Source of the DNA: Octopus sinensis
Lineage: Eukaryota
Assembly (NCBI RefSeq): GCF_006345805.1
Contig: NW_021826606.1
Coordinates: 1-12,132, forward strand
Length of the DNA stretch: 12,132 nucleotides
Direction: 5' to 3'
Shown here: positions 940 through 12,012 of the stretch, piece by piece
Numbering within the stretch: the stretch's first letter is position 1
Layout: each line of letters opens with the position of its first letter
Notes under the pieces: generated by a model
Told to the model about the DNA's origin: nothing
The model's database searches: none
The model's input: the letters and a program-made list of their open reading frames with translations, nothing else
Position numbers and translations under genes: made by a program

Positions 940-2050
940 AGGTCATCCTATAAGTTCAGTCCCATTTTACCTTTTTTTTAAAATTGAATGAAATTTAATA
1001 GTATTTTAGAATCTCTAATAGGATTTTAAAAAATGTTATGCATTTGTTTAAATTTAAACTAATTAAATATTATTTTACAGAATAATAGAATTAAAATTTC
1101 TTTGATTAAAACCCTTTCTAACATGGTAGTATCCAAAGCGCATTTAAGGTACCTAATGCTTTATGAGTACAAAAAAGGAAACTCTGCAGCTGAAGCGACT
1201 CAAAACATACACTCAGTTTACGGGAAAGAATGCTTGAATGAAAGAACTTGCAGAAGATGGTTTGCAAAATTCAGAAGTGAAGATTTCAGCCTTGAACATG
1301 AAGATCGAACAGGGCGTCCAGTTGAGTTTGATGATAAGCTCCTTGAGGCATTACTTGAAGAAAATCCTGTATTATCAGTTGAAGAATTGGCAATAAAGCT
1401 TAGTTCAAACCATACAACTGTTCATCGTCATCTTCAACAACTTGGAAAGGTTCCTAAACTTGGAAAATGTGTGCCTCATGAATTGTCCGAAAGCAACTGC
1501 AAATCCCAAGCTGACATTTGCTCTTCTCTCCATTCTCGTGAACTCATTTCACCCTTTTTGGATAGACTTGTGACTGGTGACGAAAAATGGATCTTCTAGC
1601 GAAATGTTAAACGTCATAAACAGTAGCTCGGTAAAAGGGGAAAAGCCCAACCACAACTGGGAAGGAAACTTCATGGGGAATAGGTTCTTCTCTCTATCTG
1701 GTGGGATTGCAAAGGAGTAATTCACTTTGAATTGTTACCACCTAATGCAACAATCAATGCTCAAGTCTACTGTCAGCAATTAGAGCGTTTGAACCAAGCT
1801 TCGAAGAAAAAAGGACCCGCTTTAGTGAATCGAAACGGAGTGATATTTCATCAGGACAATGCGCGATCCCACACTGCAAAGATCAGATCACAGAAGATCG
1901 AAGAGCTTCGTTGGGAAAAAATTCCTCATCCACTTTTTTCTTCCGACCTTGTTCCTTCAGACTACCATTTGTTTCGTAGTTTACAGAATCATTTGGGGGA
2001 CATAATTTTCGCAAGCCAGGAGGAGGTCGAAACCGACATTTCAGAGTTCT
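938..2050 (+). mobile_element. Mariner (Tc1/mariner DD34D) DNA transposon, 3'-truncated
   Basis: TA (936-937) is followed by the mariner-type end TCAGGTCATCCTATAAGTTCAGTCCC, an AT-rich leader and the transposase. Homology stops near ETDISEF (about 2050). No matching right TIR is seen in the window. Confidence 0.92.
1123..2050 (+). pseudogene. Mariner transposase pseudogene (single frame, three in-frame TAG stops)
   Basis: ATG at 1123. HTH region (RRWFAKFRSEDFSLE..RTGRP), CVPHEL (=WVPHEL), TGDEKW, IWWD, HQDNA and FSSDLVPSDYHLF (=YSPDLAPSDY) are present, with 34 residues between catalytic D2 and D3. Stops at 1597, 1624 and 1681. ORFs 1102..1599 and 1732..2295 are the same frame. Confidence 0.95.
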
Positions 2051-2543: not shown

Positions 2544-2934
2544 GGATGGATGGAGGCACTCCGTCGGTTACGACGACGAGGGTTCCGGTTGATCCGATCA
2601 ACGGAACAGCCTGCTCGTGAAATTAACGTGTAAGTGGCTGACCACTCCACAGACACGTGTACCCTTAACGTAGTTCTCGGGGATATTCAGCGTGACACAG
2701 AGAGTGAATAGGCCGGCCCTTTGAAATACAGGTACAACAGAAACAGGAAGTAAGAGTGAGAGAAAGTTGTGGTGAAAGAGTACAGCAAGGATCACCACCA
2801 TCCTCTGCCGGAGCCTCGTGGAGCTTTAGATGTTTTCGCTCAATAAACACTCACAACGCCCGGTCTGGGAATCGAAACCGCGATCCTACGACCGCGAGTC
2901 CGCTGCCCTAACCACTGGGCCATTGCGCCACCAC
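2544..2934 (-). mobile_element. Full-length tRNA-derived SINE with 11-bp TSD
   Basis: Minus strand A box TGGCCCAGTGG (2922-2912), B box GGTTTCGATTCC (2879-2868) and a (TCCA)n tail. Exact flanking direct repeat TTGCTGAATGT at 2533-2543 and 2935-2945. Confidence 0.93.
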
Positions 2935-3105: not shown

Positions 3106-3875
3106 CAGGGTGCGATGGGTCAATTATCGCCATTTATATTTTTAATTTCACGCATGCTTATTGTTTGTTTTTAATTTTGTCAACTACACAGTATAGCAGG
3201 GTCAGTTGGGCACCGTCTGTGAAACAAACAGAATCACGTAATTTACTCTGCCAGAAATTTAGAAACGACATACTGTACTGCTTGGCATTCGTGCCGAATC
3301 TCCAATACGAACATTTCAGAGTGTTTGTGTATCAAGCTGAGGACAGTGCAAAGGATTCGGAAAGAGTTGGATGAGTATAATGTGATTATGAAGTACGGCA
3401 GGTCGGACAACTCACTCTAATTGTACTGATAAGAAAAGAACTCCTGACTTTGTTGGTGAGATCCAGGCCATGGTTGACAATGATCCCTCCAAGTTAATCA
3501 GGTCCATCGCCAGGGACATGGGAGTGTATGAGTTTCTTATGAGGTACGTAGTGCATAAAGAAATTCGGCATTCCTCATACAAAATGAGAAAGGGCCAGTC
3601 TCTATCTCAAGCCATCAAGGACAAGAGAAAAGACCATACTATGAGGCTTTTGAACAAACTCAAGCATCCCCTACAACCGAAAATGCTTTGGCTTTTTCTC
3701 AGATGAGAAAAATTTCTGCCGGGATCAGATGGTGAACACAGAGAACAACCATTGGCTTGCCTTGTCTCCAAAACATGTATCGAGCGTGATAGAAATCAAA
3801 CATCCAGTCAACATAATGGTGTTTGGAATGATCACCACTGATGGTGACATTATGCCTCCATGCATCTTCCCACAC
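3106..3875 (+). mobile_element. maT/DD37D-like (Tc1/mariner superfamily) transposon, degenerate and 3'-truncated
   Basis: TA plus CAGGGTG end at 3104-3112. Frameshifted transposase: HTH (DNDPSKLIRSIARDMGV), SYKMRKGQ.LS, then after a frameshift at about 3695 FSDEKNF..DQMVNTENN.W...KHPVNIMVFGMITTDGDIMPP.IFP. D2 and D3 are missing, so the DD37D assignment rests on end and motif similarity only. Confidence 0.82.
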
Positions 3876-3966
3876 GTAACTTAGCGATTCGGCAAAAAAG
3901 ATTTGCTCGACTAAAGGCGGTGCTCCAGCATGGCCGCAGTCAAATAACTAAAACAAGTAAAAGAGT
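3873..3966 (+). mobile_element. 3' fragment of a SINE-like interspersed repeat
   Basis: Abrupt switch from transposase to ...GATTTGCTCGACTAAAGGCGGTGCTCCAGCATGGCCGCAGTCAAATAACTAAAACAAGTAAAAGA, running into an A-rich microsatellite. Recognised from memory as an octopus SINE tail. Confidence 0.6.
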
Positions 3967-4441: not shown

Positions 4442-4854
4442 GTGTTTACAGAATACTCTGCCGCTTACATTGTAATTCAACGAGTCTGTAGTTCCGTTTA
4501 TACAACAATTAGAACATTTAACATGAAAAAACCGACAGAATATTTATTTACTTTGCCACCAGCTACCAGCACCACCCCTACGTCTCTCTCTCTCTCTCCA
4601 TCGCCACCCGTTAACCTCCACGACCCATGATCCTCCACAACACTTCACGCCTGGTTAAATAAAAGAAAATGCTACGCTTCCTTGCTAATATGGCTTTGAT
4701 ATTATCCAAAGTGATATAAAAGTTGATATTTTCACAGCAAACAAGATAAATGTTTTGACCTGACAAACCGTTTAGTCAAATAAATTTCAGGTTTTGTAAG
4801 TCGCCTTCTTGTAATTCTTTTTTCACTATAGCATTGGTTTTGTTGTGGTTGCTG

Positions 4855-5435: not shown

Positions 5436-5750
5436 GTACATACGTGGCTTAGTGCTTAGGATATTCGGCCCACAATCGTAAGGTCGTGAGTTCGATTCCT
5501 GGAGACGCGTTCTGTCCTTGAGCAAGAGACTTTATTTCCCATTGCTCTAATCCATTCAGCTGGCAAAAACGAGTTATACCAGTAATTCAAAGGGGACCAA
5601 CCTTGTTACATTTTGTGTCACGTTCAATCTCCCTGAGAACAACATTGAGGATTACGCGTGGCTGCGGAGTACTCAGCCACTTGCACGTTCATTTCCCGAG
5701 TAGGCTGTTCCATTGATCGGATCAACTAGAACACTCGTTGTAACAACCAG
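5436..5750 (+). mobile_element. tRNA-derived CORE-type SINE, older copy
   Basis: A box TGGCTTAGTGC (5445-5455), B box GAGTTCGATTCC (5488-5499) and CORE-like GTCCTTGAGCAAGAGACTT. The 3' part (about 5578-5741) aligns with the reverse complement of about 2575-2735. Confidence 0.87.
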
Positions 5751-6065: not shown

Positions 6066-6272
6066 GTTTCTTTATTACCCACATAGAGGGGACAAACAAG
6101 GACAGACAAACGAATTAAGTCAATTACATCGACCCCAGTGCGTAACTGGTACTTAATTTATCGACCTCGAAAGGATGAAAGGCAAAGTCGACCTCGGCAG
6201 AATTTGGACCCAGAATGTAACGGCAGACGAAATACCGCTAAGCATTTCTTCCGGCGTGCTAACGTTTCTGCC
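6066..6272 (-). mobile_element. SINE of the same family as 11594-12012
   Basis: The reverse complement GGCAGAAACGTTAGCACGCCGG...GAGGTCGACTTTGCCTTTCATCCTTTCG...CACTGGGGTCGATGTAATTGACTTAA...GTGGGTAATAAAGAAA aligns end to end with the + strand copies at 11594-12012. Confidence 0.92.
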
Positions 6273-7450: not shown

Positions 7451-7634
7451 GTCAGGCACCGCTCGTCAAGACAAAGTTTAATTTCGTCTGATGTCTTCAG
7501 TTTCAATAGAAACTCAGCCATTTTTGTTCTGTCTGCTGATATCTGACCTCAAATGTCTTGACTAATCCATGTCAAAGTTCACACATGTCATTATATACAT
7601 TATTTACAATTGACGGATATTTGTCCTCATCTTG

Positions 7635-7676
7635 TTCCTTGTTCGGCTGATATAACCTCCAGCCTTCATCAGGTGT
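7635..7676 (-). ncRNA. Degenerate type I hammerhead ribozyme (PLE-associated)
   Basis: ACAC-CTGATGA-A-GGCTG(gaggttatat)CAGCC-GAA. The core box, stem II and GAA are present, but the GAAA/stem III/NUH part appears deleted. Confidence 0.72.
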
Positions 7677-7771
7677 CTTAGGGAAATTGATTATTATTAT
7701 TATTATTATTATTATCATCATCATCATCATCATCATCATTATCATCATCATCATTATTATTATTATTATTC

Positions 7772-7845
7772 TGGTCACTGCCTGGAATCGAACTCGGAAT
7801 CTTAGGTTTAGTATCCCCTGCTCTTAACCACTACACCATATGCCC
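7772..7845 (-). ncRNA. tRNA-like Pol III cassette (pseudo-tRNA) in the PLE 3' region
   Basis: 74 nt GGGCATA..GTGACCA with A box TGGTGTAGTGG and B box GAGTTCGATTCC. The acceptor stem is partial and the T-stem is mispaired, so it is not a functional tRNA. Confidence 0.8.
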
Positions 7846-7903
7846 GTGGACAATTATGGCAATTATGGAGTGAATTTTTAGGGCTTATAAATCTAATATT
7901 CTC

Positions 7904-8771
7904 CTATCTTTCCTTCATATCCGCACCCGGTCTGCTTAGGAGGTTGTTGTGTCCTAGCATACGTGCTGCTTCTTTTAGTTTTCGTATTTTCCAATGGTGT
8001 TCTCTGTCTATTACTTTAACTTCATCCCACAGGGGGAGAAGATCTCCATTTTTCCATACATGATCATTCCTTCATGGTGGGTATCACGATCGCTACTTAT
8101 ATTCATTGCTCGATGTTTTAGGCCCTGAGCAATCCCTCTCTTTACACTGTATGGATGGTGGGAGTTGAAGTTGAGGTATCGTCCAGTGAAGGTCGGCTTG
8201 CGGTATACGGATGTCCTGCATCCATACTTGGTGCTTGTTATTAATACGTCTAGGAATGCTAGCTGATTGTCTTTTTCTTTTTCCCTTGTCTACTGTATGG
8301 ATGGCTTTATTGAGTTCACATGATCTAACAACACTTGGACATCTTCCTGGTGGGGCCAGAGTATGAAGGTGTCATCAACATATCGCAGCCATAGGGTTGG
8401 TTTTAGTGGTATTGATCCTAAAGCCAAATTCTCAAAGTATTCCATGTATATATTGGCTATTATCGGTGATAATGGCAAACCCATAGCTAAACCCTCTTCC
8501 TGTCGATATATATCAATGTCCATACTGAAGTACGCAGTTTCTACGCAGAAGGTCAACATTTCCATCAAGTTTCTTATTGGTATACTAGTGCGTTCTTTTA
8601 GTTTTTCTTGAATCGCCGATAGTGCTTCACCAGTTGGGACTTTGGTGAACAGACTTATCTCATCTAGACTCACCATCTGGTTGGATTCAATGGGGGTATC
8701 CTTGATCAATTCTGTGAAGAGGGTGGAATTCTTCACGTTCGATGTTGAGACTTTCCTGCTAATGGACTGAT
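7904..8771 (-). pseudogene. PLE reverse transcriptase/GIY-YIG endonuclease pseudogene
   Basis: VKNS..MVSLDEISLFTKVP..YRQEEGLAMGLPLSPIIANIYME..WLRYVDDTF. After the TAG at 8290 the same frame continues ..LAFLDVLI..TSVYRKPTFTGRYLNFNSHHPYSVKRG. At about 8063 it jumps frame to DHVWKNGD..PLWDEVKVIDREHHWKIRKLKEAARM, the distal half of the GIY-YIG domain. Confidence 0.93.
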
Positions 8772-8927
8772 TATATATGATGGGCTTCTTTCAGTCTCCC
8801 TCAACCAAATCTACTAACAAGGCTTTGGTCGGTCCGAGGCTATAGTAGAAGAGACTTGCCCAAGGTACCACGCAGTGGGACTGAACCCGGAACCGTGTGG
8901 TATAGAAGCAAGCTTATTATCACACAC
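8772..8927 (-). mobile_element. tRNA-derived CORE-type SINE (third family)
   Basis: Minus strand GGGTTCAGTCCC (B-box-like) followed by GGTACCTTGGGCAAGTCTCTT (CORE-like). Homologous to 10571-10678. Confidence 0.85.
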
Positions 8928-10570: not shown

Positions 10571-10678
10571 AGGCACAAGAGAGGCTGTGTAGTGTGAACT
10601 TTGCTTCCCAACCATATGGTTCTGGGTTCACTTCCACTGCGTGCACCTTGGCCTAGTGTCTTCTCTATAGCTCGGGCT
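10571..10678 (+). mobile_element. 3'-truncated SINE of the same family as 8772-8927
   Basis: TTGCTTCCCAACCATATGGTTCTGGGTTCACTTCCACTGCGTGCACCTTGGCCTAGTGTCTTCTCTATAGCTCGGG aligns to the reverse complement of about 8832-8911. It follows a (TA)n tract at 10425-10570. Confidence 0.85.
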
Positions 10679-10891
10679 ATAATATACGGGACGCTGAAAT
10701 CTACAGGCTTTTTATCAATTTATTTCTTATTTATCCTTTAAAAGAGCGTAAGCTCGAAACGTAAAAAGGTTTTAAGACCTTTCATTTTTCCCGAACGTTA
10801 CCCAGACGTGCTTGTTGTTTACACAGCTGCCTTCTTCTTTGTTTTTTCTATAAATTTCAACATATAATATTATATATATATATATATATAG

Positions 10892-11593: not shown

Positions 11594-12012
11594 TGACGAG
11601 CTGGCAGAAACGTTAGCACGCCGGACGAAATGCTTTGAGGTATTTACACTGTGTGGATGGTAAGAATTGAAGTTCAAATTTCGCCGAGGTCGACTTTGCC
11701 TTTCATCTTTTCGGGGTCGATAAATTAAGTACCAGTTTCACACTGGGGTCGATGTAATCAACTTAATCCCTTTGTCTGTCCTTGTTTGTCCCCTCTGTGT
11801 GTAACCCCTTGTGGGCAGTAAAGAAATAGGTATTTTGTCTGCCGTTATGTTTTGAGTTCAAATTCCGCCGAAGGCGACTTTACCTTTCGTCCTTTCGGGG
11901 TCGGTTAAATAAGTACCAGTTTCGCACTGGGGTCGATGTAATTGACTTAATCCCTTTGTCTGTCCTTATTTGTCCCCTCTATGTTTAGCCCCTGTGGGCA
12001 ATAAAGACATAA
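11594..12012 (+). mobile_element. Dimeric SINE with 12-bp TSD
   Basis: Unit 1 spans 11594 to about 11828. Unit 2 spans about 11829-12012 and lacks the first 45 nt or so. B-box-like GAGTTCAAATTCC is present. Exact direct repeat ATATCATTTCAG at 11582-11593 and 12013-12024. Confidence 0.93.

What the first reader, a model, noticed from the sequence alone, without database searches (positions are those of the whole stretch)
7590..7905. PLE 3' end built as tRNA-like Pol III promoter + microsatellite + hammerhead
Seen: co-oriented on the minus strand just after the GIY-YIG remnant are a 74-nt pseudo-tRNA with A/B boxes (7845-7772), an (AAT)/(GAT) tract (7770-7689), a hammerhead core (7676-7635) and a short tail. 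No TSD is evident around the tRNA-like part and no SINE body follows it. Established: PLE pseudo-LTRs carry minimal hammerheads, and Schistosoma SM-alpha repeats combine Pol III boxes with a hammerhead. Inference: the tRNA cassette may be an integral pLTR promoter, and the roughly 250-nt module could move alone as a PLE-dependent SINE or retrozyme.
Basis: partly seen in the sequence, partly recalled or inferred. Interest (0 to 1): 0.72.

Follow-up and report, generated by a model that had tools for sequence, protein, structure and literature searches.

The report
Octopus Penelope element with tRNA-like promoter
An abundant Penelope-type jumping gene, likely from an octopus, carries a decayed tRNA copy with RNA polymerase III promoter boxes in its end repeat, just ahead of its protein start and self-cutting RNA motif, where it likely acts as a captured promoter, though the copy in this window is broken.

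Summary
All four pieces are present, but this copy's hammerhead is broken: a 12-nt deletion removed GAAAC-NUH. Contigs and reads from 4 of 4 runs laid (two organisms) show other copies with a complete minimal, dimer-type hammerhead. Hammerhead and tail are the start of the Penelope ORF inside the pseudo-LTR, so the tRNA-like head (12.2 bits on an independent tRNA profile) lies just upstream of the ORF start, the promoter position. In DNA the head is about as abundant as the endonuclease end (0.5-1.1x), and no pile of copy ends is listed at its 5' edge. It is therefore likely a family-wide part of the pLTR, not a one-off insertion and not mainly a free SINE. The commonest piece is hammerhead plus tail without the head. 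RNA/DNA coverage rises 2-5x at the head's 5' edge (unstranded, different samples). A distant, intact, tandem Penelope element (L020) also has a tRNA-like piece at this place; 21 of 22 other hammerhead sites do not. Pol III transcription is untested. Verdict: new variant of a known kind, linking Penelope pLTRs to Schistosoma SM-alpha-type Pol III hammerhead repeats.

The parts
8065..8774 (-). 5'-truncated PLE reverse transcriptase and thumb remnant, with one frameshift, one stop and small deletions
   Evidence: Pfam RVT_1 E=1e-10; 71-73% identity to residues 379-612 of P0127 and 341-575 of P0162
7916..8062 (-). C-terminal ~50 residues of the endonuclease, joined to the thumb by an internal deletion of ~130 codons that removed the GIY-YIG motif
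   Evidence: tblastn 70% to P0127 743-792; loose ends at 8061/8066 and 7919 show other copies hold the missing letters
7846..7903 (-). 3' UTR, start of the pseudo-LTR; carries a 9-bp duplication (7851-7868) that reads of other copies lack
   Evidence: gaps at 7860-7875 in run X23
7772..7845 (-). tRNA-like head with A box (7838-7828) and B box (7793-7785); acceptor and T stems decayed
   Evidence: no tRNA call
7690..7770 (-). (AAT)n/(GAT)n spacer between head and ORF start; the start codon seen in other copies is missing in this one
   Evidence: P0183 and P0186 begin MRTQVRNFPKTP whereas the window aligns only from residue 7
7641..7676 (-). Minimal type I hammerhead remnant: stem I 5' strand 7676-7673, CTGATGA 7672-7666, unpaired A, stem II 7664-7645, GAA 7644-7642; 12 nt (4 codons) deleted
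   Evidence: loose ends at 7642/7643 in 4 of 4 runs; 4-residue gap against P0186 and P0187
7590..7688 (-). N-terminal codons of the PLE ORF inside the pLTR (overlapping the hammerhead) and the tail where most copies end
   Evidence: 68% identity to P0183; P0183 vs N-terminus of full-length PLE protein P0159 43% over 44 aa, E=6e-8 in a two-sequence search; mixed-flank loose ends at 7589-7597

Best explanation
This is the broken 3' end of an abundant Penelope-like retroelement, likely from an octopus, whose pseudo-LTR likely carries, family-wide, a captured tRNA-derived head just upstream of the ORF start and the hammerhead, and that head likely works as an internal polymerase III-type promoter. 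Steps: (1) shown: order endonuclease end, UTR, head, triplet tract, ORF start with overlapping hammerhead, tail; (2) shown in other copies: complete minimal hammerhead with 4-bp stem I, 6-bp stem II and a palindromic stem III, the dimer type; (3) inferred from depth and loose ends: the head travels with the element, and most genomic copies are 5'-truncated pieces that stop before reaching it; (4) inferred: as in other PLEs the upstream copy's pLTR drives the next copy of a partial tandem, here from the A/B boxes; (5) predicted: two hammerheads of such a transcript would cut as a dimer, leaving the promoter at the 3' end of the unit, the geometry described for SM-alpha; since the cut falls inside the first ~25 codons, only uncut RNA would keep the start codon.
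For: Boxes at tRNA-like spacing, 13 of 2000 shuffles; tRNA profile 12.2 bits against a shuffle maximum of 4.4. DNA depth of the head relative to the endonuclease end 0.49-0.88 by bin and 0.56-1.07 by place in two organisms, RT 0.10-0.15, tail 2.8-3.3. Among the six loose-end rows shown per run none lies at the head's 5' edge, although rows go down to 62 (X1) and 38 (X8) contigs, while true copy ends at 7589-7597 give 97-207 contigs. 367-373 RNA reads cover 7850-7875, 5-30 nt from the head. Single contigs join 7857 and 7859 to PLE interior (8320, 7982). RNA/DNA ratio is 0.65-1.25 over RT, endonuclease end and UTR and 2.3-2.9 (organism D) or 2.9-5.0 (organism A) over the head. No run of four T on the sense strand from 8790 to 7590. 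L020, an intact tandem PLE outside the window's clade, has a tRNA-like piece between its stop codon and hammerhead (13.5 bits). PLE promoters lie in the pLTR (PMC2377424).
Against: No direct test of Pol III. The lay found no place where many RNA molecules begin (table 6); the library reads both strands equally; RNA and DNA runs come from different samples, and for organism D raw reads are compared with contigs; the tool states that contig depth is no copy number; the tract (7680-7778) was skipped, so no listed record bridges head and hammerhead outside this window. DNA depth dips to 0.16-0.37 at 7850-7875, which I ascribe to this copy's duplication and deletions but did not prove. Lack of T runs is not beyond chance (P=0.36 window, 0.19 L020). 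21 of 22 hammerhead sites in relatives have no such head, so PLEs do not need one. A tRNA-like piece also lies by chance beside a PLE in L037, and L020's box score alone is matched by 3 of 265 shuffles. Octopus gene models that begin with the pLTR peptide fit Pol II transcripts through the pLTR. Conservation of the boxes across copies was not seen (113 difference rows hidden).
Confidence: 0.5

Rival explanations
1. Fixed passenger: a SINE head or tRNA retrocopy landed in the 3' UTR of a master copy and was carried along by the family; the element is transcribed by an ordinary Pol II pLTR promoter, and the boxes do nothing for it (or only give stray short Pol III RNAs).
For: Octopus genomes are rich in tRNA-derived SINEs (two other heads score 19.1 and 16.6 bits in this window; PMC8967140). 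The head ends in an (AAT)n run like a retrocopy tail. 21 of 22 relatives manage without. The two PLE promoters studied are Pol II type with introns. pLTR-initiated host gene models exist.
Against: Boxes are kept while the tRNA stems have decayed; the head is co-oriented at the promoter position; RNA step at its 5' edge in both organisms; the same placement in distant L020.
Confidence: 0.32
2. One reading: head + tract + hammerhead + tail moves mostly on its own as a PLE-dependent SINE or tandem retrozyme, and the window shows such a unit joined to a PLE body.
For: Head-started RNA would carry the 3' tail that the PLE enzyme copies; RNA excess over the head; hammerhead and tail are 1-3x the endonuclease end in DNA; animal retrozymes derive from pLTRs (bioRxiv 10.64898/2026.07.22.740005); SM-alpha precedent (PMC6765202).
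Against: Head not in DNA excess over the endonuclease end in either organism; no listed pile of mixed-flank ends at 7845; the excess lies downstream of the tract, in pieces without the head. A minority of head-started copies is not excluded.
Confidence: 0.13
3. One-off insertion of a SINE head into this copy only, or chance juxtaposition.
For: The copy is heavily rearranged (at least four deletions and one duplication) and the window is full of SINEs.
Against: No target-site duplication; PLE-derived contigs show no common break at 7845/7846; head depth matches the endonuclease end; the head is under 80% alike to the window's other SINE heads, so their reads do not inflate it.
Confidence: 0.05

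Closest known systems
[quoted passage not shown] 2021, PMC8557442)
   Same: RT followed by C-terminal GIY-YIG region, pLTR made of 3' UTR plus ORF start, minimal type I hammerhead with long stem II, short stem I, unpaired base after CUGAUGA, G-C closing pair, palindromic stem III; tail; mass 5' truncation; inverted joints
   Different: tRNA-derived A/B-box head and triplet tract inside the pLTR; the two characterised PLE promoters (D. virilis Penelope, Chlamys-3) are Pol II type overlapping an intron
Schistosoma SM-alpha / Sj-alpha repeats (seen only through the review PMC6765202; the primary papers were not held)
   Same: Pol III promoter upstream of a hammerhead; promoter ends up at the 3' end of the cut unit, so tandem copies are needed
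   Different: SM-alpha is a short non-coding tandem repeat with a canonical hammerhead; here the same layout is the terminal repeat of a protein-coding element
TRIMp3: Helenus, Ajax, Cassandra (Kojima 2024, PMC10886601)
   Same: small-RNA-derived Pol III promoter inside a terminal repeat, proposed to arise by SINE insertion into the repeat
   Different: those are non-autonomous LTR elements with PBS and PPT and no ribozyme; this is a PLE with RT coding sequence and a hammerhead
Animal non-LTR retrozymes (bioRxiv 10.64898/2026.07.22.740005; PMC7761336)
   Same: type I hammerhead, pLTR ancestry
   Different: defined as tandem repeats and described as apparently lacking promoters; no tandem cassette array seen here, and a promoter-like head is present

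Membership tests
EN+ Penelope-like element | PLE-type reverse transcriptase | tested here: met
   RVT_1; 58-73% identity to full-length relatives; 99-supported clade with P0127, P0162, P0001 in a quick tree of 71 rows
EN+ Penelope-like element | C-terminal GIY-YIG endonuclease | tested here: inconclusive
   Only the last ~50 residues remain here. Some relatives carry PF01541; the local Pfam scan of P0127, P0159 and L020 gave RVT_1 only
EN+ Penelope-like element | pLTR = 3' UTR plus start of the next ORF (partial tandem) | tested here: met
   7688-7590 codes for the ORF N-terminus; other copies run on in frame past 7590
EN+ Penelope-like element | Tandem or inverted insertion structures | tested here: inconclusive
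   Opposite-strand joints in single contigs (7634-8031, 7636-8666, 7644-7830, 7848-7906, 7997-8653); none in the window
Minimal type I hammerhead of PLEs | CUGANGA, stem II, GAAA, NUH and stem I in this copy | tested here: not met
   12-nt deletion after stem II
Minimal type I hammerhead of PLEs | The same core in other copies of the family | tested here: met
   Loose ends at 7642/7643 read GAAAC-GUU-GUGU on the sense strand in 4 of 4 runs; P-K-R-C-V in P0186 and P0159
Minimal type I hammerhead of PLEs | Self-cleavage as a dimer | not testable with these tools
   needs an in vitro assay
tRNA-derived SINE | tRNA-related head with A and B boxes | tested here: met
tRNA-derived SINE | Many independent short copies starting at the head | tested here: not met
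   No DNA excess of head over endonuclease end and no listed end cluster at 7845; indirect, a minority not excluded
tRNA-derived SINE | Target-site duplication around the head | tested here: not met
tRNA-derived SINE | Pol III transcription from the boxes | tested here: inconclusive
   RNA/DNA step at the head, but unstranded and no start pile
Functional tRNA gene | Cloverleaf passing ARAGORN or Rfam | tested here: not met
Non-LTR retrozyme / SM-alpha-type repeat | Tandem non-coding units, each with a hammerhead | tested here: inconclusive
   Single unit in the window; no assembly held; no cassette-to-cassette joint among the rows shown (71 not shown)
Non-LTR retrozyme / SM-alpha-type repeat | Circular RNA | not testable with these tools
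   no such joint among the listed rows; needs divergent RT-PCR

The most novel reading that the evidence does not exclude
Protein-coding Penelope-like elements have more than once (this octopus family and the distant L020 family) captured a tRNA-derived Pol III promoter into the pseudo-LTR and are transcribed from it, giving an autonomous retrotransposon with a SINE-type promoter whose hammerhead cuts promoter and start codon off the next copy; SM-alpha-type Pol III hammerhead repeats would then be freed pLTRs of such elements.
Probability: 0.3. Interest if true: 0.8.

Novelty: new variant of a known kind. Interest (0 to 1): 0.57.

Why it matters
How PLEs are transcribed is known from two elements only, both with Pol II-type promoters. 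A tRNA-derived promoter in the pLTR of a coding PLE would be a SINE-type promoter on an autonomous retroelement, would give a concrete origin for Pol III + hammerhead repeats such as SM-alpha, and would extend the TRIMp3 idea from LTR elements to PLEs. PLEs make up 6.83% of the Octopus vulgaris assembly (supplement of PMC13282606), so such heads could add many TFIIIC/Pol III sites, and repeat catalogues may be filing these pLTR pieces as SINEs. It is testable with one assembly and one stranded 5'-end or ChIP data set.

Tried and rejected
No whole genome is held for this window, so no copy census. Exact hammerhead patterns found nothing in viral or metagenome contigs and one unrelated bacterial match. 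Rfam gave no tRNA or hammerhead hit in the window or in L020. Protein search with the window's own pLTR frame found no longer candidate; ESM Atlas gave only hits of 0.81-0.82, chance level. Parent tRNA unresolved: a loosened head motif matched 10 viral loci, 8 of them tRNAs (4 Arg, 3 Met, 1 Ile), and those were selected by the motif. T-run depletion as a sign of full-length Pol III transcription: not significant (window P=0.36, L020 P=0.19, 33 relatives spread widely). No PLE relatives in viral contigs. tRNA-like pieces in L090 (box score 15; not found by the profile) and L037 (28 bits) lie in flanks, not in pLTRs. The second copy's 3' region in the L020 contig could not be fetched. The careful tree did not finish; the quick one is used. 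Ohshima and Okada 1994, Ferbeyre 1998 and Lunse 2017 were not held.

Full report
Setting. The window is repeat-rich animal DNA. Its source is not given and no genome is held. The peptide coded by 7688-7590 matches gene models of Octopus bimaculoides (P0183, P0187) and O. sinensis (P0186) at 55-68% identity, so an octopus is likely; the species was not determined. The unique flank 7500-7543 had no depth in any of the four runs laid, so those runs report on the family, not on this locus.

Observation. The head has an A box at its position 8 and a B box at position 53; such a pair appeared in 13 of 2000 shuffles (box consensus recalled). A profile HMM built from 26 bacterial tRNAs chosen without the head gave three hits under E=0.01 in the window: two other heads (19.1 and 16.6 bits) and this one (12.2 bits, E=0.0016); the best of 920 shuffled 350-nt pieces scored 4.4 bits. 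It is not a tRNA gene. No duplication flanks it. The hammerhead of this copy is incomplete: CTGATGA and a 6-bp stem II are there (14 of 2000 shuffles), but the core ends at GAAC.

The element. 8774-8065 is a 5'-truncated RT and thumb (RVT_1), 71-73% identical to P0127 and P0162; it jumps from P0127 residue 612 to 743, so the GIY-YIG motif is deleted and only the endonuclease's last ~50 residues remain. The frame through the hammerhead reads NFPKTPDEGW.., and P0183, which starts MRTQVRNFPKTPD, aligns with the N-terminus of the full-length PLE protein P0159 (43% over 44 aa). Hammerhead and tail are therefore the first codons of the ORF: this is the 3' pseudo-LTR, the partial tandem that PLEs form (PMC2377424, abstract and discussion read; PMC8557442, passages). 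The head thus sits just upstream of the ORF start, where PLE promoters lie. This copy has lost the start codon and four codons in the hammerhead.

The family (one lay at 80% likeness of 4 of the 24 runs listed). (a) Loose ends at 7642/7643 in all four runs (213+123, 210+109 and 48+23 contigs; 656+1123 reads) supply the missing letters: GAAAC-GUU-GUGU on the sense strand, giving a 4-bp stem I with ACAC and a palindromic stem III. This fits the minimal dimer-type hammerhead of PMC4209133 (parts 1-2 of 4 read); the pairing was read by eye, not folded. (b) Copies end in a spread at 7589-7597 with mixed flanks or run on in frame into the ORF. (c) Relative to the endonuclease end, DNA depth is 0.10-0.15 for RT, 0.49-0.88 for the head bins (0.56-1.07 at single places), 1.0-1.9 for the hammerhead and 2.8-3.3 for the tail, alike in organisms A and D. 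This is a 5'-truncation gradient in which the head is not in excess. (d) None of the six loose-end rows shown per run lies at the head's 5' edge, though rows go down to 62 and 38 contigs in the DNA runs; 1226 rows were not shown, and I assume the shown ones are the largest. A foreign insertion or a large SINE population would both put a pile there. (e) RNA/DNA is 0.65-1.25 from RT to the UTR and 2.3-2.9 (D) or 2.9-5.0 (A) over the head; in raw reads depth goes from 373 at 7850 to 1552 at 7814. Over hammerhead and tail the ratio is 1.2 in D but 4-12 in A, so the two organisms disagree there. Limits: contig depth is no copy number; DNA depth dips to 0.16-0.37 at 7850-7875, where this copy has a duplication and nearby deletions; the tract was skipped, so head-to-hammerhead linkage is seen only in the window; the library is unstranded; no start pile was found; run X15 is only guessed to be RNA; samples differ.

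Relatives. An alignment of 23 PLE proteins fetched 79 loci from metagenome contigs (the best 80 of 450 confirmed). 22 hammerhead-like sites with at least 200 nt upstream were found in 21 loci (23 rows, one site twice; a few doubtful, several related). One of the 22, L020, has a tRNA-like piece upstream (13.5 bits; E=4e-4 in that search; E=0.016 over all 292,893 bases). L020 is a stop-free PLE in a tandem with a 2,791-nt unit whose overlapping parts are identical; the piece (2828-2905) lies between the stop codon and the hammerhead and is followed by a short AAT run. It shows no DNA match to the window's head and falls outside the window's 99-supported clade in a quick tree of 71 rows, so a separate capture is likely. 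Against over-reading: only one junction is seen, the contig may be a collapsed assembly, its box count alone is matched by 3 of 265 shuffles, and L037 shows that a tRNA-like head can lie near a PLE by chance.

Mechanism. Most likely (0.5): a tRNA-derived head was captured into the 3' UTR, became part of the pLTR and supplies an internal Pol III-type promoter, by which an upstream copy transcribes the next; paired hammerheads would cut out a unit with the promoter at its 3' end, the geometry given for SM-alpha in the review PMC6765202 (passages). That the head is integral I put at about 0.85; that it is the working promoter at somewhat over half of that. The sense strand has no T4 run from 8790 to 7590, which allows read-through but is not beyond chance. 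Main rival (0.32): a fixed passenger with a Pol II promoter elsewhere; gene models that start with the pLTR peptide fit that. A mainly free SINE or retrozyme gets 0.13, a one-off insertion 0.05.

Comparison and novelty. The PLE and its hammerhead are ordinary: same motif type as in the relatives. The head in the pLTR is the new part. Ten full-text searches listed no paper on a PLE with a tRNA-derived pLTR head or on octopus hammerheads. Also seen: PMC10886601 (abstract and passages; Pol III promoters in LTRs of non-autonomous TRIMs), bioRxiv 10.64898/2026.07.22.740005 (part 1 of 5 and passages; the words tRNA and promoter do not occur; its supplements are closed), PMC7761336 (passages; retrozymes seem to lack promoters), PMC13282606 (part 1 of 3 and a supplement search; 190 PLE families, no 'hammerhead' in the supplement), and passages of PMC8967140, PMC4758252, PMC12914980 and PMC3531059 with nothing on this. 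Not seen: Ohshima and Okada 1994 on three octopus tRNA-derived retroposons, the primary SM-alpha paper, Lunse 2017, Repbase and Dfam entries, and the supplements of PMC8557442 and PMC4209133; the head could already be catalogued there as a SINE. Earlier scan notes had no look-alike sequence; a word search gave five notes from other genomes, used as leads only.

Verdict. Real feature, broken copy, new variant of a known kind. Interest 0.57; 0.8 if Pol III transcription of the coding element is shown.

Noticed in passing
L020:2756-3020 (metagenome contig JGI1357J11328_10009043): Intact tandem PLE (2,791-nt unit, ~36% identity to P0127) with a tRNA-like piece and a short AAT run between stop codon and hammerhead; possible second, independent capture.
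   Followed up: partly
P0186/P0188/P0190 (O. sinensis LOC115224785) and P0187 (O. bimaculoides dystrobrevin beta X1): Host gene models begin with the pLTR-coded peptide of this family; the partial O. vulgaris counterpart P0189 starts differently. May be pLTR-driven or exonised 5' ends, or annotation artefacts.
   Followed up: partly
window 7634, 7636, 7644, 7848, 7997 (joints): Single contigs join pLTR or endonuclease sequence to the opposite strand of the element, the inverted structures typical of PLE insertions.
   Followed up: no
window 7588-7675 in runs X15 and X23: Hammerhead and tail are 4-12x enriched in RNA over DNA in organism A but only 1.2x in organism D.
   Followed up: no
window 1063-2030 (+): Decayed mariner (Mos1-type) transposase: HTH_48 E=1e-21, Transposase_1 E=3e-17.
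   Followed up: no
window 3110-3890 (+): Broken reading frames that look by eye like a second Tc1/mariner-type remnant; no Pfam hit for the two frames tested.
   Followed up: no
window 2863-2928 (-), 5443-5501 (+), 8872-8909 (-), 10603-10629 (+): Other tRNA-like SINE heads (19.1 and 16.6 bits; the last two weak); the repeat at about 8790-8905 abuts the 5' truncation point of the PLE and resembles 10596-10685.
   Followed up: no
window 6080-6236, 11672-11801, 11829-11984: Three copies of a ~150-180-nt interspersed repeat, two in tandem (period 184) and one inverted, 88-91% alike.
   Followed up: no
L030:2098, L041:2799: PLE hammerheads with the U3-A8 core variant in place of C3-G8, as described for Schistosoma PLEs in PMC4209133.
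   Followed up: no
L037:2010-2084; L090 about 4530-4600: tRNA-like SINE heads in the flanks of PLE copies, outside the pLTR; background for the L020 hit.
   Followed up: yes
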